A stretch of 64,000 nt of DNA from a virus. The notes below the pieces were generated by a model, which searched no databases, was not told the origin of the DNA, and was given only the letters and a program-made list of their open reading frames with translations. Shown piece after piece: positions 15,877 through 22,691 of this stretch. A program made the translations under genes and the position numbers. The stretch spans positions 13,604 through 77,603 of the IMG/VR virus record IMGVR_UViG_3300032006_002011. The stretch is one strand, 5' to 3'. Within the stretch, counting starts at the first letter, position 1, and the number at the start of each line of letters is the position of its first letter.

Positions 15877-18800
15877 CTAACCAGCTATAAATACTCTGGT
15901 ACTTAATAATGTTGGCAATCTTGCCCGTAAACCTGCTAATTGTCCTTGTTGAGCGGGACTTGAGGTGGTAATATATGGGTCGTGGTGAACATGGCCACTC
16001 AACCAACCACACAAACTGCCTAACCATGCAGTTGCTACATCTCCTTTCAAAACGGGATGCCTTCTTGTTATATATTCTCCGAGGTGAATTGTGGGTGATA
16101 CCACAGATGTATGTGTAGCCGTTACAGTTACAAGTCTCTTTACGCAATTTAAAGTCATTTCATCATCGGTGGTCATACCAAACTTGCCCTTTCCATAAAA
16201 CGCAAGTTCTTTGGTTTTTGCTGATACGATAATTCTCTCAGAATTCAATATTATCTGATTTCCGTCAAGTTGGGGAAGTTGCTTTCCGAACATAATATTG
16301 CCACCGTCTTGTTCTTCCTCAACTTTTTTTTCAACCGCATCCATTTTTTTATTGAACTCATTATCCTTTTTCTTCTTTGCCTCATTGATATCATCATTAA
16401 CCTGTTTTGTATCTTTCAAAGAATTCAAATCTTCTGGGTGGAGAAGTGAGACTGCATTCATGTCCGCATTTTCCAAATGAGTCCCAACCAAATCACCTTT
16501 TGAAATTTCCTCTCCGTTATGGAAATTCTTTACAGTGTCAGGATTTTGAGGAACTTGCCCCGAGTCGGTTGTCGTGGTTGCGGGAGGAGTTGGGGATGGA
16601 CTTGCAAGTTCAGTAGATGGTGTTGGTGTTGGAGATGCGGGTGACGATGGTGTGGTTGTGGACGAGGGTGCAGATGAAGATTGGTCTGAGTCGGTTAATG
16701 TTGAGGTTGTTGTGACAGCTGTGGTGGAAGTTGTTGACGCCGTTCCCGTATATTGAATTCCCCCTGTATTTGTCGTATCATAGGATATTGTTCCCATGTT
16801 TGGTGTTACGGGTGTGTCTAATGATTCTGCGGTTGGTGTGGGTGGGGTTTCTCTGTATAAACCCGAGATGGGATCAAACGACATGGTTGCAACCTGAGAA
16901 GAGCCTTTATTCAAAGACAACGAAGTTTGTCCGAACATTCCAGCAGCTGCTTTCAGAGCCGAACCATCTCCTATTAAAGATTTATACTGCATATCAAAGT
17001 CTGGGTTACCTCTTGCATAAGCATCGTAATTGCCATCTTGCATCAGTTTATTTCCGGCAAACATAGTTAGTTCTTTTGGATTAAGTGCCTTGGTTGCTTC
17101 ACTTTTAAAAGTATCCGCAAGACTTGAACCATACTCAATTTGATTTACCCAGTCACACAAATCAAACAACAAATTATTCAAATCAAACCCAAGAAGTGAA
17201 CCGATGTTGAATTTAAGATCACGGAGTCTTGCGAAAATCGCCGCAAGGATGGCAAGCAATTCCAAGTTTATTCCAATTGACAACAACCACCCGAGTTCGT
17301 CCTCGGTTCTTGAACCGTGCTTCTTATCCTTTAGACCTGCACAAATAGAACGGAGTCCAAAAGATGCCAACTTAAAAACCTTAAACATTGGACTATCACT
17401 TGGTGTCATTCCCATCGCAGATGCTCCTGGTATATCGATGCCAAGAGAATTTGCAGCGGAAATTGCAGGACCCGACTTTGATGACATCAGTGAGTCCTTT
17501 CCAGCCTTGGTACCCGATTTAATAGAACTAACTATACCCGTTTCAAATGTAGGGTTTAATGTAAATGCACCGCGGCCTACGTCGGCCATGAACTCTGCTT
17601 TGGGTGACTTAGTTCCAACCGAAGCAGCGATTCCCATACTTGACGAACCACCACTCGCAGAATTGGCCTTCAGGGCATCTGACGATGGGCCCGTGTCTAT
17701 GTATTTAGCGGCCCGGTTGGCCGACATACCATCGAATCGTTTACCAACTGCTTGACCATTGTCAGAACCAAGGGCTGCACTGAAACTTGATGTCATTGAC
17801 CCACCCAAATCGGAGTTCGCTGCAAACTTGGCAGCTGCTATCTGCGGTCCGTATGCTGTTTCTGCGTATGTCTTTCCCGCCTTTACCGCAAGATCACCCG
17901 TAACTTTTGCAGTATCAAGTGCAGGTTCTGCAATGTCCTTAATGCCCTTTGACCCCACATCAGACTTAGCAAGATTTGAAAGACCATCCAATCCACCTTT
18001 TTTCTTTTTCTTCGGTTTTGGTTTGGGTCCTACTAATGTATGCTTAAACTTTGAAATTGTTTTTCCAGACGTAATATGAATAGACGAACCATCTTTGTTT
18101 ATGTCTTCAAGAATAGTGTGTTGAAATATTTTTTCATTGTCTTTGTCTTTTGTGTCGGGTCCTGGAATTTTTAGAGGGCGTTGGCGATTTCTAATTAATA
18201 TCATGGGGTTTCCACGATTAGCATCGTAGTTTTCTCCATGCCCTTCCGCAGTTCCTATATCAAATTTAGGGTTGTCCTCATAACAACCAAACCTAACACT
18301 TGAACCAAACCTACTCTCCAATACAGTATCTCCCTCAAAGTGTTTGAGGGGGCGTATCCAGGAGTTGGCCTTGAAATATCGTCCCAAATAACTTGCAATT
18401 GAATTACACTCTTTGCTAATATTTGACTTATTCTTAGCATTTTTTAACGCAGGACTTTTTAACTTAGTAATAGGAGTTGATCCTGAAAACTTGGGCTCCC
18501 ACCTATAATCCCCTGAATGATTTATAAAATTTCGTGAATTGATTTTTCTATGATAATACCAACCATCTAGATATTTTACAACCACCACCATTTCATTGAC
18601 AAGTGGCCATTCCTTGTAGGTACTATCCATAGGAATCATCCAAGTAAGTTCTGACCAAGGGGTTTGGGCCTGACTATGTATTGGTCTTGCTTTTATTCTA
18701 CCTATAAACGAGTAATCTGGTTTAGTGGAGTCATTCCACCCTTCTGGCCATTCCGTCTCTACTATTTTCGGTTCTTTCCCACCTTCTTTGAAAATGGGGT

Positions 18801-18957
18801 GGTTTTCATCTTGTATGACATCCAAAACAACGGCCGCCTCAAGCTCATAAAACATAACCGTGTCGGGGGTTTCTAATTTTAACCCACGCAAGGTGGCCAA
18901 CGCGTTAGTTGACAATTCCTTTTTTACGGACTTTTTAGTATAAGTGCTATATGCCAT
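15877..18957 (-). CDS. Baseplate hub / central spike (gp5/gpV-like) with a long low-complexity middle
   Basis: N-terminal OB-like region (WPLVNEMV, FEGDTVLESRFGSSVRF); C-terminal beta-repeat (GNQIILNSERIIVSAK) and HVHH tip motif; upstream of gp25. Confidence 0.7.
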   Translation of the reverse strand: MAYSTYTKKSVKKELSTNALATLRGLKLETPDTVMFYELEAAVVLDVIQDENHPIFKEGGKEPKIVETEWPEGWNDSTKPDYSFIGRIKARPIHSQAQTPWSELTWMIPMDSTYKEWPLVNEMVVVVKYLDGWYYHRKINSRNFINHSGDYRWEPKFSGSTPITKLKSPALKNAKNKSNISKECNSIASYLGRYFKANSWIRPLKHFEGDTVLESRFGSSVRFGCYEDNPKFDIGTAEGHGENYDANRGNPMILIRNRQRPLKIPGPDTKDKDNEKIFQHTILEDINKDGSSIHITSGKTISKFKHTLVGPKPKPKKKKKGGLDGLSNLAKSDVGSKGIKDIAEPALDTAKVTGDLAVKAGKTYAETAYGPQIAAAKFAANSDLGGSMTSSFSAALGSDNGQAVGKRFDGMSANRAAKYIDTGPSSDALKANSASGGSSSMGIAASVGTKSPKAEFMADVGRGAFTLNPTFETGIVSSIKSGTKAGKDSLMSSKSGPAISAANSLGIDIPGASAMGMTPSDSPMFKVFKLASFGLRSICAGLKDKKHGSRTEDELGWLLSIGINLELLAILAAIFARLRDLKFNIGSLLGFDLNNLLFDLCDWVNQIEYGSSLADTFKSEATKALNPKELTMFAGNKLMQDGNYDAYARGNPDFDMQYKSLIGDGSALKAAAGMFGQTSLSLNKGSSQVATMSFDPISGLYRETPPTPTAESLDTPVTPNMGTISYDTTNTGGIQYTGTASTTSTTAVTTTSTLTDSDQSSSAPSSTTTPSSPASPTPTPSTELASPSPTPPATTTTDSGQVPQNPDTVKNFHNGEEISKGDLVGTHLENADMNAVSLLHPEDLNSLKDTKQVNDDINEAKKKKDNEFNKKMDAVEKKVEEEQDGGNIMFGKQLPQLDGNQIILNSERIIVSAKTKELAFYGKGKFGMTTDDEMTLNCVKRLVTVTATHTSVVSPTIHLGEYITRRHPVLKGDVATAWLGSLCGWLSGHVHHDPYITTSSPAQQGQLAGLRARLPTLLSTRVFIAG

Positions 18958-19412: not shown

Positions 19413-20279
19413 TCAGTCTAAATCTATCCTACCTTGGTCAATATATTTCCTATGCAAAGCAAATTGTGTTTCCTTCATCTTATTAACGACCTTGGTTATA
19501 TTTTGAGTTTTGCAATCAGTCATTTCACGTATATACAAATACAATGCCTTTTTATTGAAATTTTCAATTGAATCGCAGTTTCTGAATATCTCCACTACGG
19601 CAGCTGCGATTCTTAATTCTTGTGGTTTCTTAAAAAACTTTTCGAGGTTTTCGTCCCAGTACCCTATCATCAGTTTTATAAATTCACTTAACTCTTTCTT
19701 TTTAATTTCCGACTTTGGACTTACAGTTAATTCTTTTTGTTCATATACAATTTCGTCATCGTCCACACTTGTATGTCGTTTAAACTTCTTATAGTTTCCG
19801 TTATTATATAAAATTAAAAAGTTTTTTGCTATAATACTAAAATACGAAAAGGCCTTTCCGTTTTCTTGTTTATATTTGTGAATATTACTTACCAAATTAC
19901 TAACAGTTTCCCGCTGAACATCTTCATGACTACATTGAAAATAAGAAAACTTAAAAGTATTTAGTATGTTCTCTGCAAGTTTGTCGAACGGATAACTTAT
20001 TGACTCGTTATATATTTTATTTCGTTTTATAGTACACTCTGTCGAGTTATACAACACAATTGCATCTTCGGTTTCTTGAGTAAAATATAACTTTTTCTTT
20101 GTCTTGGAACGCCTGCGCCTTCTTTTTTTAGGGGCTGGTTGTTTATCTACCTCGACCTTAACATTAGAAACTTTCTTCTTAGTAGTTGCCTTCTTCTTGG
20201 AAGCTGCTTTAGTAGTTGCAGCCTTCTTAGAAGTTGCTTTAGTAGTTGCCTTCTTCTTGGCAGTTGCCTTTGCTTTCAT
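19413..20279 (-). CDS. Late-transcription sigma factor (gp55-like) with a histone H1-like Lys/Ala/Thr N-terminal tail
   Basis: LYFTQETEDAI...KLAENI...KY...GKAFSYFSIIAKN sigma region-2-like pattern; N-terminal KKKATTKA repeats. Confidence 0.6.
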   Translation of the reverse strand: MKAKATAKKKATTKATSKKAATTKAASKKKATTKKKVSNVKVEVDKQPAPKKRRRRRSKTKKKLYFTQETEDAIVLYNSTECTIKRNKIYNESISYPFDKLAENILNTFKFSYFQCSHEDVQRETVSNLVSNIHKYKQENGKAFSYFSIIAKNFLILYNNGNYKKFKRHTSVDDDEIVYEQKELTVSPKSEIKKKELSEFIKLMIGYWDENLEKFFKKPQELRIAAAVVEIFRNCDSIENFNKKALYLYIREMTDCKTQNITKVVNKMKETQFALHRKYIDQGRIDLD

Positions 20280-20551
20280 ATTTCGTCCTCATTAATTTTA
20301 CTATCTAAATCCAGTATTATATCTCGTATACCAGAATATACCACACCCACCTCATCATCACTCTCAAATAACTCCTTTGAGTCAATGTCCTTAATATCAT
20401 TACTCAGTTTAGTTACCGAGTCTCTGGTTTCCAGTATCCACTGCTCATATACACCATTTTTAATATATAAATTTCTTATAATATATATTAATAGAGGTAT
20501 AATAATTACCCAAGAAACTGCCAACGCAATTATATAATACGTTTCATACAT
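20276..20551 (-). CDS. Small single-TM membrane protein
   Basis: Hydrophobic N-terminus followed by a coiled coil; stop overlaps the sigma gene start. Confidence 0.65.
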   Translation of the reverse strand: MYETYYIIALAVSWVIIIPLLIYIIRNLYIKNGVYEQWILETRDSVTKLSNDIKDIDSKELFESDDEVGVVYSGIRDIILDLDSKINEDEI

Positions 20552-20595
20552 AGGCACTGTATATTATATATATATTTATTTGTCAACAAAATAAA

Positions 20596-21474
20596 TCATT
20601 TGTTATCTTTTTGTGAATCGTCTTTTTTGTCCGATTCTTTTTCTGTGGGCATATTACCAAGTGTACTTCCTGGTATATATTCCCTATCTCTTTTGTATCG
20701 TTTTCTTATAATATATTCTTCATATGCTTTCATTGAAGTTTCTTTCCAAGGCACATAATATGGACCTTTATTAAATCCTGCTGGGTCTAATTTATTCACC
20801 TTAACAAACTCTTCCCACTCATCTTCATTATCATACATAGGAGTTGACATAACATTATCATCTTCTTGTTTTTTTGGAGTCGGGGTCGGGGTCGGGGTTG
20901 GAGTCGGAGTCGGGGTTGGTGTTGGAGTCGGGGTCGGGGTTGGTGTTGGAGTCGGGGTTGGTGTCGGGGTTGGAGTCGGGGTTGGTGTTGGTGTTGGAGT
21001 CGGGGTTGGTGTTGGAGTCGGGGTTGGTGTCGGAGTCGGGGTTGGTGTCGGGGTTGGAGTTGAAAATTCCTCACACGCATCTGGTAATAACAATGTATCG
21101 TCTGTCCATTCTGTATCTTGATATGGAAACTCAACATCTTCGGCCATTCCCACTAGTTGCCACGGATGGGCATCTTCTCTGCTATGGTCCGTCTTGTGCC
21201 ACCCCATTGCCCAAAAGTTGTCAATTGATGTCCAGAAAATCCATCGTTCGTTTTCCATGCCGATATACTCATCGGAGCAGCTGCCTTCACATCGTTTTAC
21301 CCACGCAGGTTTTCCCTGCCACAACTCGGAATCAAGGTGATATTCCCCACTATATGCAAACGAGTCTTCGGTTTTTGAAACACATATAACAGAAGATGGT
21401 TGTGGAGTTGGGGTGGGTGTAAAGTCACTCTCCTCTTGATACCTATCAGCAAAGGGAAGATTGTCTATCCAATT
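20596..21474 (-). CDS. Pro-Thr-rich reading frame, probably the -1 frameshift extension of 21465..22565
   Basis: Frame open from 21495 to 20596 with no ATG/GTG/TTG before 21324; overlaps the upstream gene at an A10 run. Confidence 0.65.
   Translation of the reverse strand, partial: NWIDNLPFADRYQEESDFTPTPTPQPSSVICVSKTEDSFAYSGEYHLDSELWQGKPAWVKRCEGSCSDEYIGMENERWIFWTSIDNFWAMGWHKTDHSREDAHPWQLVGMAEDVEFPYQDTEWTDDTLLLPDACEEFSTPTPTPTPTPTPTPTPTPTPTPTPTPTPTPTPTPTPTPTPTPTPTPTPTPTPTPTPTPTPTPKKQEDDNVMSTPMYDNEDEWEEFVKVNKLDPAGFNKGPYYVPWKETSMKAYEEYIIRKRYKRDREYIPGSTLGNMPTEKESDKKDDSQKDNK
20875..21060 (-). repeat. (Thr-Pro)31 coding repeat
   Basis: 186 nt of ACN-CCN hexamers with 18-nt higher-order periodicity. 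Confidence 0.95.
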
Positions 21475-22565
21475 TTTTTTTTCGGGGTGTCTAATTCATC
21501 GTCACGGGTTAACTTTCCACCCGATATAATGTTGTATGCAAGAACAAGTGCAACCGCAAGTGGATCAAACACGATAACAATTACAATGATAAACCACTTA
21601 ACAACTTGGTCGATTGGAGTATTAAACGAATCAGCAATGAACTGAAAACTTCCTATGTCCGTATTTCTAATAGAGTCCTTTTCCTCAAGAATGCGTTGCT
21701 CGTTTTTTCTTAACTTCTCATAGTTTGCTTCAATTGCGGGTGTGTTATCTATCTTATTAGACTCATCTCGTAAACTATTTACCTTTCCCGTGAAGATCCC
21801 GTATTCTCTTTCAATTTCCGCGTCAATTGCGTTGATTTGTTCATTGTATAGGGCAACCGCGGATGTTTCTTCATCATCAATTTTTTTCATAGACTCTGCA
21901 ATGGATGCCCGTTCTGGTGCCTGAGCCTTTGCAAGTTCTTCAAGTTTCTTCTTCTTATTGGAGAACAAACCACCACTTGATGCTTCTAACTCACTTCTTG
22001 CCTTGTCAAGTATTGCAAGTCTATCCAATAGTTGTTGCCTTCGTGATTGACGGGTTTCGGAATCAGACTTGTGTCTATCTGACAGAGATGCTTGTCTTGC
22101 TCGTCTATCCTCAACAAAGTCATCATAAATTTTTTGGAATCCAGCAATGGTTTCCGTTGATTTGTTGTCAACTGTGTCCGATGATTGCTTGAGTGATTCC
22201 ATCTCACCTTTAATATGTTCGTTCTCTGCTTGTATTTGGACGATGTTATTGTTGTGCATTTCAACCTTTGCACGTGTATCGTCATACGCATCACTTAAAA
22301 ATCCATAAATACCAAGTGACGTTATCCCCACTAGGGTTATCACCGCAGTAGTTGAATATATTTTCAACATACGTGGAACTCGGTCCCAATATCGATATAG
22401 AAACGAAGTCATTACCAATTTTCCTGCTTCAAGGACACCTGCCATTATCATAGCGGCGATGGATGCTCCTGCAAATAATAAACTTATTCCCCAAACTGAA
22501 AAGAAGGCTGCCGTTCCCGCCACCGCAAGTGCCAAAAGGCCGACTATTGCCGTAAACATCTTCAT
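21465..22565 (-). CDS. Membrane protein: 3 N-terminal TM helices, long coiled coil, C-terminal TM (DUF4407-like architecture)
   Basis: Hydrophobic N-terminus with LEAGKLV, heptad-rich centre, IVIVFDPLAVALVLA. Confidence 0.75.
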   Translation of the reverse strand: MKMFTAIVGLLALAVAGTAAFFSVWGISLLFAGASIAAMIMAGVLEAGKLVMTSFLYRYWDRVPRMLKIYSTTAVITLVGITSLGIYGFLSDAYDDTRAKVEMHNNNIVQIQAENEHIKGEMESLKQSSDTVDNKSTETIAGFQKIYDDFVEDRRARQASLSDRHKSDSETRQSRRQQLLDRLAILDKARSELEASSGGLFSNKKKKLEELAKAQAPERASIAESMKKIDDEETSAVALYNEQINAIDAEIEREYGIFTGKVNSLRDESNKIDNTPAIEANYEKLRKNEQRILEEKDSIRNTDIGSFQFIADSFNTPIDQVVKWFIIVIVIVFDPLAVALVLAYNIISGGKLTRDDELDTPKKKIG

Positions 22566-22632
22566 AATAATATATATCCTCCCATTAGTTTATTTAATCC
22601 GTATCATCCTCATATAAATATAATATAATTAT

Positions 22633-22664
22633 AAAAAAACGGAGGTTTTTTTAAAACCCCCGTT
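22633..22664 (-). terminator. Intrinsic terminator after hsp20
   Basis: AACGGGGGTTTT / AAAACCTCCGTT hairpin followed by a T run on the minus strand. Confidence 0.75.
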
Positions 22665-22691
22665 CAAAACGAATTGTTTTAAGTTGTTATG

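What the first reader, a model, noticed from the sequence alone, without database searches (positions are those of the whole stretch)
20596..22565. Apparent programmed -1 frameshift at an A10 run adds a (TP)31 extension to a membrane coiled-coil protein
Seen: the membrane gene ends CCG AAA AAA AAA ATT GGA TAG (A10 at 21473-21482). The -1 frame opens only at 21495, has no ATG/GTG/TTG for about 57 codons, and reads as sensible protein (NWIDNLPFADRYQEESDFTPTPTPQP...) for about 290 codons. Inference: ribosomal -1 frameshifting or transcriptional slippage yields a short (366 aa) and a long (~655 aa) isoform. Phage frameshifts are best known in tail chaperones and capsid/tail proteins, so one in a multi-TM coiled-coil protein is unusual.
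Basis: partly seen in the sequence, partly recalled or inferred. Interest (0 to 1): 0.72.

Follow-up and report, generated by a model that had tools for sequence, protein, structure and literature searches.

The report
Conserved poly-A slip site, phage membrane protein
A run of ten A's at the end of a membrane-protein gene of an uncultured marine phage is a strictly conserved slip site that most likely gives a short protein and a 656-residue form with a Thr-Pro stalk; the mechanism is known, but this gene family has not been described as using it.

Summary
ORF1 (22565..21465, minus strand, 366 aa) ends CCG-A10-TT-GGA-TAG. The -1 frame is open from 21495 to 20596, has no start codon for 57 codons, and encodes a conserved motif, a 111-aa insert, (TP)31 and a conserved C-terminal module.

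It is not an assembly error or a dead gene. Seventy related junctions from viral and metagenome contigs all carry exactly A10 followed by a stop two codons later. Variation after the run falls on third positions of the -1 frame. The C-terminal module is never fused in frame among 1.84 billion representative proteins.

No conserved RNA structure or Shine-Dalgarno-like stimulator flanks the run. A/T runs of 8 or more are about eightfold depleted in the window.

Other branches of the same protein family carry A9 or A10 Lys runs at the same core/tail boundary. Their homologous tail lies either in frame (A9) or in the -1 frame (A10).

I conclude this is programmed recoding that gives two isoforms. 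Transcriptional slippage (about 0.6) is favoured over ribosomal -1 frameshifting (about 0.3).

The protein is an uncharacterised four-helix membrane protein with a roughly 15-nm coiled-coil hairpin; its function is unknown. The closest precedent is Citrobacter tssM1.

This scan found the same site earlier on other genomes, and one follow-up reached the same verdict.

The parts
22628..22665 (-). Terminator-like hairpin after hsp20 (22665..22637), overlapping a promoter-like site (TTTAAA-16-TATAAT, 22655..22628) just upstream of ORF1
   Evidence: These are consensus matches only. No terminator-like site lies between ORF1 and the -1 ORF on this strand.
21465..22565 (-). ORF1, the short isoform (366 aa). 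TM1-TM3 are residues 2-92 (22565..22290). The antiparallel coiled-coil hairpin is residues 93-317. TM4 is residues 318-348 (21614..21522). The disordered tail is residues 349-366.
   Evidence: The AlphaFold2 model has mean pLDDT 79. More than 2000 homologues were found, all unnamed and viral.
21957..21980 (-). Hairpin tip loop, residues 196-203 (GGLFSN, followed by KKKK encoded AAG AAG AAG AAA), at the midpoint of the coiled coil
   Evidence: loop 196-203; G198, G199, F201 and S202 nearly or fully invariant; codons.
21473..21482 (-). A10 slip site. In the 0 frame it reads AAA AAA AAA A. It contains an in-phase A_AAA_AAA heptamer.
   Evidence: It is invariant in 70 of 70 homologous junctions. 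It is the only A/T run of 9 or more in the 77.6-kb contig.
21465..21467 (-). 0-frame stop TAG, two codons after the run, embedded in the -1-frame codons TGG ATA GAC (W-I-D)
   Evidence: The stop is kept in all relatives, including where Ile became Val (ATA to GTA).
20596..21474 (-). -1-frame extension: 292 codons from AAT at 21474, then a stop at 20598..20596. It is translated only after a slip in the run.
21421..21474 (-). Conserved junction motif NWID[ND]LPFA[DE][KR]FQE.GDF
   Evidence: Positions N1, W2, D4, L6, P7, F8, Q13 and F18 are invariant while third codon positions vary.
21064..21396 (-). Cys/Trp-rich insert of 111 aa, predicted beta-rich. It occurs only in this phage and in one relative (L018/L077).
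   Evidence: The AlphaFold2 model is low-confidence. Similarity to the giant baseplate protein is weak (E = 0.06).
20875..21060 (-). (Thr-Pro)31 linker, encoded with mixed synonymous codons
   Evidence: Relatives have TP/SP/EP linkers of variable length.
20599..20862 (-). Conserved C-terminal module (DDNVxSTPMYD ... GPYYVPWK ... GYIPGSTLGN)
   Evidence: Alignment A3. It is present in 48 viral loci. A profile search of 1.84 billion representatives found only 17 short fragments.

Best explanation
The A10 run is a programmed recoding site, and one gene gives two proteins.

Standard decoding ends two codons after the run. It gives a 366-aa inner-membrane protein with three N-terminal transmembrane helices, a coiled-coil hairpin of about 100 residues per arm, a fourth helix and a short basic tail.

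A fraction of the product continues in the -1 frame. It gains 292 residues: a conserved motif, an insert domain, a (Thr-Pro)31 linker and a conserved C-terminal module, for 656 aa in all.

The most likely mechanism is transcriptional slippage, at about 0.6 given that recoding is real. The host RNA polymerase would realign on the T10 template and add one A, so that A11 transcripts read through in frame. Transcripts with A9 or A12 would stop after 3-9 codons and still give a tail-less form. A ribosomal -1 slip on the in-phase A_AAA_AAA heptamer may contribute or be the main route, at about 0.3.

What is shown: the site is conserved, the -1 frame is coding, it has no start of its own and no in-frame fusions exist.

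What is inferred: the mechanism, the ratio of the two forms, and the topology. By the positive-inside rule the N and C termini are cytoplasmic and the hairpin is periplasmic, so the extension would be a cytoplasmic tether carrying a short binding module. The biological role is unknown.
For: (1) A10 plus a stop two codons later is found in every related junction: all 17 loci that reach the ORF1 end (12 distinct junction sequences with the window's), every one of the 48 C-module loci that reaches the junction (33, counting L056-L058), and 70 of 70 in a scan that would also have accepted A8-A13.

(2) After the run, variable sites by -1-frame codon position are 10/20, 6/19 and 16/19. The 45 nt before the run vary at all three positions.

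(3) Most relatives have no ATG, GTG or TTG for 120-230 codons of the -1 ORF, yet its first 18 residues are conserved.

(4) A profile of the C-terminal module finds only 17 fragments of 37-251 aa among 1.84 billion representatives. It finds no fused protein of about 600 aa.

(5) There is no conserved RNA structure. RNAalifold gives -1 kcal/mol and the single-sequence z-score is 0.18. The window's own hairpin pairs in 62.5% of cells against 60.9% in shuffles. No conserved SD-like sequence lies upstream.

(6) Long A/T runs are avoided elsewhere: 2 runs of 8 or more against 16 expected. The internal KKKK of the same gene is AAG AAG AAG AAA. In the window, L018 and L019, AAG is the commoner Lys codon in ORF1, yet the terminal KKK is always AAA. 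The run follows CCG, the rarest Pro codon at 13%.

(7) Other branches of the family carry A9 or A10 at the same boundary with a different frame relation. L325 and L327 have A10 with a 169-codon -1 extension. That extension is homologous (E = 5e-15) to the in-frame tail that follows an in-frame A9 in L337 and seven other loci. In those loci CAA/GAA, AAA, AAA and AGA/AGT keep nine A's although the residues change. L270 compared with L276/L282 shows the same pattern. Frame relations that vary among orthologues are the published criterion for transcriptional realignment (PMC3711429).

(8) There is a precedent. The A11 tract of Citrobacter tssM1 lacks stimulators, gives RNAs with 10-15 A's, and yields two length variants of an inner-membrane protein, both of which are needed (PMC4256274).
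Against: There is no RNA or protein evidence. Only contigs could be laid, and the single RNA run does not reach the junction.

The frame direction is constant (-1) within the window's own clade. By the criterion of PMC3711429 taken alone, that would predict ribosomal frameshifting.

Both the A10 and the A9 configurations contain an in-phase A_AAA_AAA heptamer, so a ribosomal slip is possible in each.

Relatives at 40-50% identity have P-K-K-K or P-N-K-K after TM4 with in-frame tails. Part of the Lys-run conservation could therefore be selection on the protein.

The host is unknown (possibly Flavobacteriia), and how its RNA polymerase behaves on A runs is not known.
Confidence: 0.87

Rival explanations
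1. The mechanism is purely ribosomal -1 frameshifting, or ribosome sliding on poly(A), at the in-phase A_AAA_AAA heptamer, acting on a homogeneous A10 mRNA.
For: The heptamer is in phase in all relatives. The direction is conserved (-1) across the window's clade. Ribosomes are known to slide on iterated AAA codons (PMC4363877, listed).
Against: No conserved downstream structure or upstream SD-like stimulator exists. The run is kept at 9-10 A's, beyond the 7 the heptamer needs, through synonymous choices and across residue changes. In other branches the frame relation flips between in-frame A9 and out-of-frame A10.
Confidence: 0.3
2. The switch is at the DNA level. Replication slippage would give A10 and A11 subpopulations of phage genomes (phase variation), each making only one isoform.
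For: Homopolymers are prone to replication slippage. In a second clade of the family, A9 and A10 states are each fixed in related phages, so run length does change over evolutionary time.
Against: All 70 homologous junctions have an A10 consensus, with none at A9 or A11. Contigs from three studies agree. Minor variants could not be examined because only contigs were available.
Confidence: 0.06
3. These are two separate genes. The -1 ORF would be translated on its own from TTG 21324 or another internal or non-canonical start.
For: A TTG lies 57 codons into the -1 ORF. Gene callers emit short proteins that start at the Met of STPMYD.
Against: The TTG is not conserved. The first start lies 120-230 codons in for most relatives, and at STPMYD several relatives have Leu. 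The most conserved part of the extension, NWIDNLPFA, begins at the run, upstream of any start, and shows a coding pattern of substitution. No SD-like sequence precedes the TTG.
Confidence: 0.03
4. The frame break is an artefact or decay: a homopolymer sequencing or assembly error (true A11, one ORF), or a recently broken pseudogene.
For: Homopolymers are error-prone on some sequencing platforms.
Against: The same A10 appears in 70 contigs from many samples and studies, with diverged flanks. An independent contig crosses the site with 0 gaps. The -1 ORF is under purifying selection across relatives whose ORF1 is 65-89% identical to the window's. No A11 or in-frame version exists in any collection searched.
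Confidence: 0.02

Closest known systems
Citrobacter rodentium tssM1 (A11) and Yersinia pseudotuberculosis tssM transcriptional frameshifting (PMC4256274)
   Same: A poly-A tract lies just before a premature stop in an inner-membrane protein gene. No SD or structure stimulator is present. The result is a short form and a C-terminally extended form that share the membrane part. In that system the ratio matters.
   Different: The tssM1 tract is A11, lies 28 nt before the stop and gives access to the +1 frame. Here the run is A10, lies 5 nt before the stop and gives access to the -1 frame. That is a bacterial secretion-system gene whose extension has a known function (binding TssJ). This is a phage gene of unknown function, and slippage has not been shown experimentally.
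dnaX tau/gamma: Thermus thermophilus A9 transcriptional slippage and E. coli A_AAA_AAG -1 frameshifting (as summarised in PMC3711429 and PMC5009743)
   Same: An A-rich slip site gives two products with a common N-terminal part. Orthologues differ in mechanism and in frame relation.
   Different: In dnaX the shifted product is the shorter one. E. coli dnaX has an upstream SD-like element and a downstream hairpin, and neither is found here.
Phage tail assembly chaperone G/GT -1 frameshift, and frameshift-added Ig-like extensions of capsid and tail proteins (PMC5009743)
   Same: Phage genes in which a fixed minority of product gains a C-terminal extension from the -1 frame.
   Different: Those are virion-assembly proteins with short heptamers such as G_GGA_AAG. 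According to the review the G/GT frameshift is absent from T4. Here the protein is a multi-pass membrane protein of a phage with a T4-type baseplate gene, and the site is a 10-nt homopolymer.
Shigella spa13 / mxiE and IS-element transposase transcriptional slippage (PMC5009743, PMC3711429)
   Same: Runs of eight or more A's or T's give a C-terminal extension from another frame, through a bacterial multi-subunit RNA polymerase.
   Different: The gene classes differ. In IS families both +1 and -1 clusters are known. Here the states seen are in-frame A9 and -1 A10.
Spanins (Rz-like i-spanin)
   Same: Membrane anchor plus a long periplasmic coiled coil. There are weak PHROG hits (E = 0.008-0.025). 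Homologues lie near lysis genes in Pelagibacter phage Mosig and Flavobacterium phage immuto.
   Different: This protein has four transmembrane helices and a hairpin that returns to the membrane. No o-spanin partner is seen. In XacN1, RAS14 and Mel-JY01 the homologue lies among replication or unrelated genes. The PHROG hits are at noise level. It is not filed as a spanin.

Membership tests
Programmed transcriptional realignment (slippage) site | Homopolymeric A or T run of about 8-9 nt or more in the coding strand | tested here: met
   A10 at 21473-21482.
Programmed transcriptional realignment (slippage) site | Run length conserved among orthologues despite available synonymous codons | tested here: met
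   All 70 junctions have A10. AAG makes up 36% of other Lys codons in these genes. An in-frame A9 is kept through Q/E and R/S changes in a second clade.
Programmed transcriptional realignment (slippage) site | Frame relation of the two ORFs varies among orthologues (criterion of PMC3711429) | tested here: inconclusive
   The relation is constant (-1) within the window's clade. In two other branches it varies between in-frame A9/A10 and -1 A10. No +1 case was seen.
Programmed transcriptional realignment (slippage) site | Heterogeneous run length in RNA but not in DNA | not testable with these tools
   Only Logan contigs were served, and the RNA run covers 21937-22364 only.
-1 programmed ribosomal frameshift site | X_XXY_YYZ heptamer in phase with the 0 frame | tested here: met
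   A_AAA_AAA spans A3-A9 of the run.
-1 programmed ribosomal frameshift site | Conserved stimulatory hairpin or pseudoknot 5-9 nt downstream | tested here: not met
   RNAalifold gives -1 kcal/mol over 12 sequences. The z-score is 0.18. The candidate stem is no better than shuffled or slid controls.
-1 programmed ribosomal frameshift site | Conserved SD-like element 10-14 nt upstream | tested here: not met
   GGAG is present in one subgroup only and is absent from the window and its closest relatives.
-1 programmed ribosomal frameshift site | Trans-frame protein demonstrated | not testable with these tools
   No proteomic data are available.
Rz-like i-spanin | Single N-terminal TM, periplasmic coiled coil, a cognate o-spanin lipoprotein gene, and a place in the lysis cassette | tested here: not met
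   The AlphaFold2 model shows four TM helices and a returning hairpin. No lipobox ORF is embedded or adjacent. The genomic neighbourhood is inconsistent.

The most novel reading that the evidence does not exclude
The poly-A run is not a quirk of one clade. It would be an old, recurrent isoform switch of a very large, unnamed family of phage inner-membrane hairpin proteins (more than 2000 homologues in T4-like, immuto-like and jumbo phages). A Lys-coding A9 or A10 run sits at the boundary between the conserved membrane core and a variable tail. Its length (A9 in frame, A10 out of frame) would set which isoform is the default, and polymerase slippage would supply the other at a tuned ratio. The tail would be a long proline-rich cytoplasmic tether ending in a short aromatic/proline binding motif. 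It would couple a periplasm-spanning sensor or anchor to a cytoplasmic partner in only a subset of the molecules.
Probability: 0.35. Interest if true: 0.72.

Novelty: new member of a known kind. Interest (0 to 1): 0.55.

Why it matters
Gene callers split or drop the 292-codon extension. They emit only fragments of 37-251 aa, so a conserved protein form of an abundant group of marine phages is missing from every database.

The site adds a clean, deeply sampled natural example of homopolymer recoding in a phage with a T4-type baseplate. The reviewed literature lists tail-chaperone and capsid frameshifts but none in a membrane protein.

The contrast between in-frame A9 and out-of-frame A10 within one family offers a natural experiment. 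It can show how run length sets isoform ratios and can separate polymerase slippage from ribosome slippage.

It also points to a large uncharacterised family of phage membrane proteins with a 15-nm hairpin as worth functional study.

Tried and rejected
Family and fold searches:
- Pfam, PHROGs and NCBIfam scans of ORF1, the extension and distant homologues gave only noise-level coiled-coil hits.
- tblastn of the extension against 50,697 phage records found nothing.
- Foldseek of the ORF1 model against the PDB returned only generic antiparallel coiled coils such as SMC and chemoreceptors, with E > 0.02.
- The AlphaFold2 model of the extension had mean pLDDT 55, so no fold search was run on it.
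- The ESM Atlas lists only unnamed viral clusters.

Leads that did not hold:
No paralogue of any part of the extension exists in the 77.6-kb contig.
- A link to lysis, from the neighbourhoods in Mosig and immuto, is not borne out in XacN1, RAS14 or Mel-JY01.

Reads and RNA:
- Read-level A10 versus A11 counts and RNA run lengths could not be obtained. All runs were served as contigs, and the RNA run stops about 450 nt from the site.

Tools and literature:
- Literature searches found no description of this gene family or site.
Full report
**The observation.** The genes lie on the minus strand. ORF1 (22565..21465, 366 aa) ends CCG AAA AAA AAA ATT GGA TAG, with A10 at 21482..21473. The -1 frame is open from 21495 to 20596, which is 299 codons stop to stop. 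Its first ATG/GTG/TTG is the TTG at 21324, 57 codons in. Read from the run, it encodes 292 residues:
- a motif beginning NWIDNLPFA;
- a 111-aa Cys/Trp-rich segment;
- (TP)31 at 20875-21060;
- an 88-aa C-terminal module.

A slip would therefore give a 656-aa protein.

**Whether it is real.** Searching IMG/VR with ORF1 gave 19 loci at 65-89% identity. All 17 that reach the 3' end have the same A10, then two codons (I/T-G), then TAG, and a -1 frame open across the site. With the window they make 12 distinct junction sequences whose flanks differ freely.

A search with the C-terminal module gave 48 loci. Every one that reaches the junction has the same arrangement, and none is fused in frame. Many of those contigs end inside the Thr-Pro repeat.

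A pattern that would accept A8 to A13 before TGGATAGA found 37 viral and 33 metagenome junctions with the NWID..LPF context. All have A10. The two collections overlap in part.

Contigs from other public runs cross the site without gaps. One is identical (run X3) and one comes from a diverged strain (run X7). Raw reads were not available.

After the run, variable columns by -1-frame codon position are 10/20, 6/19 and 16/19. That is the signature of a translated frame, and it begins at the run itself.

In most relatives the -1 ORF has no start codon for 120-230 codons.

A profile of the C-terminal module, run against 1.84 billion representative proteins, finds 17 fragments of 37-251 aa and no protein of about 600 aa. 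The module is therefore reached only through the frame change. Assembly error, pseudogene and independent initiation are all rejected.

**The site against its background.** The window (38.5% G+C) has only two A/T runs of 8 or more and one of 9 or more. A first-order Markov model expects about 16 and about 6. The whole 77.6-kb contig has three and one.

Inside ORF1 the conserved KKKK at the hairpin tip is encoded AAG AAG AAG AAA. In the window, L018 and L019, AAG is the commoner Lys codon in ORF1, yet the terminal KKK is AAA AAA AAA in every relative.

The run is preceded by CCG, the rarest Pro codon at 13%, or by CCC in one subgroup. The 0-frame stop is kept even where the overlapping -1 codon changed from ATA to GTA.

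The +1 frame closes after 3-9 codons. Any slip other than a net gain of one base therefore still gives a tail-less protein.

**Mechanism.** No conserved RNA structure flanks the site. RNAalifold on 12 sequences gives -1 kcal/mol. The window's own fold has a z-score of 0.18. Its downstream hairpin pairs in 62.5% of alignment cells, against 60.9% in shuffles and 70.8% when slid by one column. An SD-like GGAG lies upstream in one subgroup only. The usual stimulators of bacterial -1 frameshifting are thus absent. The authors of the Citrobacter tssM1 study used the same reasoning before showing RNAs with 10-15 A's (PMC4256274).

The strongest new evidence comes from other branches of the family. 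A scan with the family alignment and a follow-up scan show A9 or A10 Lys runs at the boundary between the conserved core and the distal tail in at least two further lineages.
- L325, L326 and L327 have ACC-A10-TTTAA, so the 0 frame reads KKKI-stop. Their -1 ORF is 169 codons long and 90% identical between L325 and L327.
- That -1 extension is homologous (E = 5e-15) to the in-frame distal tail of L337, which starts just after an in-frame A9.
- Eight loci with six different flanks keep this A9 as S-[Q/E]-K-K-[R/S]. They always use CAA/GAA, AAA, AAA and AGA/AGT, so nine A's persist although the residues change. The other two frames close after 0-22 codons.
- In a third lineage, L276 and L282 have an in-frame A10 followed by stops in both other frames. 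L270 has A10 with the homologous tail in the -1 frame.
- Across the family, KKK motifs in the tails are either broken by AAG (runs of 5-8) or are full A9-A10 runs (8 of 17).

Selection thus acts on a run longer than a heptamer, and the frame relation differs among relatives. That is the published hallmark of transcriptional realignment (PMC3711429).

Against this, the direction is constant in the window's own clade, and every configuration also contains an in-phase A_AAA_AAA heptamer. Relatives at 40-50% identity have PKKK or PNKK at this place with in-frame tails, so part of the conservation may be selection on the protein. I put transcriptional slippage at about 0.6, a ribosomal slip at about 0.3, and a DNA-level switch at about 0.06.

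**The protein.** ORF1 belongs to a very large family with more than 2000 hits, all unnamed and labelled viral in the ESM Atlas. No Pfam, PHROG or NCBIfam model covers it. Homologues occur in Flavobacterium phage immuto, Pelagibacter phage Mosig, Microcystis phage Mel-JY01, and jumbo Xanthomonas and Stenotrophomonas phages.

The AlphaFold2 model (mean pLDDT 79) shows these elements:
- helices 2-31 and 35-62;
- a third helix that runs unbroken from the membrane to residue 195;
- a loop at 196-203, the nearly invariant GGLFS motif;
- return helices to residue 314;
- a fourth membrane helix at 318-348;
- a disordered tail.

This is a four-helix anchor bearing an antiparallel coiled-coil hairpin of about 15 nm. 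Foldseek finds only generic coiled coils.

Over 34 homologues the TM2-TM3 loop has net charge +4.1 and the segment after TM4 has +1.0. The membrane-proximal ends of the hairpin are -0.3 and -1.1. Some relatives carry hydrophilic N-terminal extensions of 130-190 aa with no signal peptide. By the positive-inside rule the termini are cytoplasmic and the hairpin is periplasmic. This is an inference and was not tested.

Distant relatives all have in-frame hydrophilic tails after TM4, often proline-rich and ending in aromatic/proline motifs. The tail is therefore a general feature of the family. In the window's clade the slip site makes it optional.

The extension is predicted to be largely disordered. 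The 111-aa insert occurs only in this phage and one relative.

**Context.** The neighbouring genes are hsp20, an HD phosphohydrolase, a glycosyltransferase, phoH and a gp6-like baseplate wedge protein. The closest isolates by the gp6-like protein are a 484-kb uncultured phage, Mel-JY01 and immuto. Two homologues were binned with Flavobacteriia MAGs. The sequence occurs in marine plankton metagenomes. ORF1 has its own promoter-like site after the hsp20 terminator, and no terminator separates the two frames.

A link to lysis is suggested by Mosig, where the homologue follows a glucosaminidase gene, and by immuto, where it lies near chitinase and holin genes. Three other phages do not show it. 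I leave the function open.

**Comparison and novelty.** The kind of mechanism is well known: tssM1, dnaX, Shigella spa13/mxiE, IS transposases, and phage G/GT and capsid extensions (PMC4256274, PMC3711429, PMC5009743). The gene family, the phage group and the in-frame A9 versus out-of-frame A10 pattern are not described in the held literature. This scan had already flagged the same site on several other genomes, and one follow-up reached the same verdict. I rate it a new member of a known kind, with interest 0.55.

Noticed in passing
L325-L327 and L334-L345 (IMG/VR loci; for example L325:4097-4106, L337 about aa 421): A second clade of the same membrane-protein family has either an in-frame A9 run (eight loci) or an out-of-frame A10 run (three loci) at the same place. 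The homologous distal tail, with KPKEV... and EVPGPERIVE repeats, is read in frame 0 or in frame -1 accordingly.
   Followed up: partly
L270:2521-2530, compared with L276:3803-3812 and L282:3803-3812: A third lineage: A10 is in frame and followed by stops in both other frames (A10-TAAATAA) in L276 and L282. In L270, A10 is followed by a 0-frame stop, with the homologous 63-codon tail in the -1 frame. L270 is a single contig, so an error cannot be excluded.
   Followed up: partly
L028 / L049 / L245 (IMGVR_UViG_3300028829_005098): In this relative the -1 extension leaves the Thr-Pro frame inside the repeat and ends early, at 135 codons. This is probably an assembly error in the repeat. About 15 other contigs simply end inside the TP repeat.
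   Followed up: no
window 21064-21396 (-): A Cys/Trp-rich, beta-predicted 111-aa insert lies between the junction motif and the TP linker. It is present only here and in one relative (L018/L077). Its W-rich core resembles short motifs repeated in the giant baseplate protein only weakly (E = 0.06).
   Followed up: partly
window 21957-21980 (-): The nearly invariant motif GGLFS.KKKK sits exactly at the tip of the predicted 15-nm hairpin. A hydrophobic pair next to a Lys cluster could be a contact point for a membrane or a partner protein.
   Followed up: no
window 16324-16331: This is the only other A/T run of 8 or more in the window. It is an A8 on the minus strand inside the 1026-aa ORF (15877..18957), where it reads in frame as Lys codons. 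No alternative-frame ORF was examined.
   Followed up: no
window 20276-20557 (-): A small 93-aa protein with one N-terminal transmembrane helix is encoded 38 nt after the end of the extension. It is probably co-transcribed. It has no family match.
   Followed up: no
P0095, P0103, P0107 (family members): Some homologues carry hydrophilic, charged N-terminal extensions of 130-190 aa before TM1, so both ends of the family's core are sites of variable additions.
   Followed up: no
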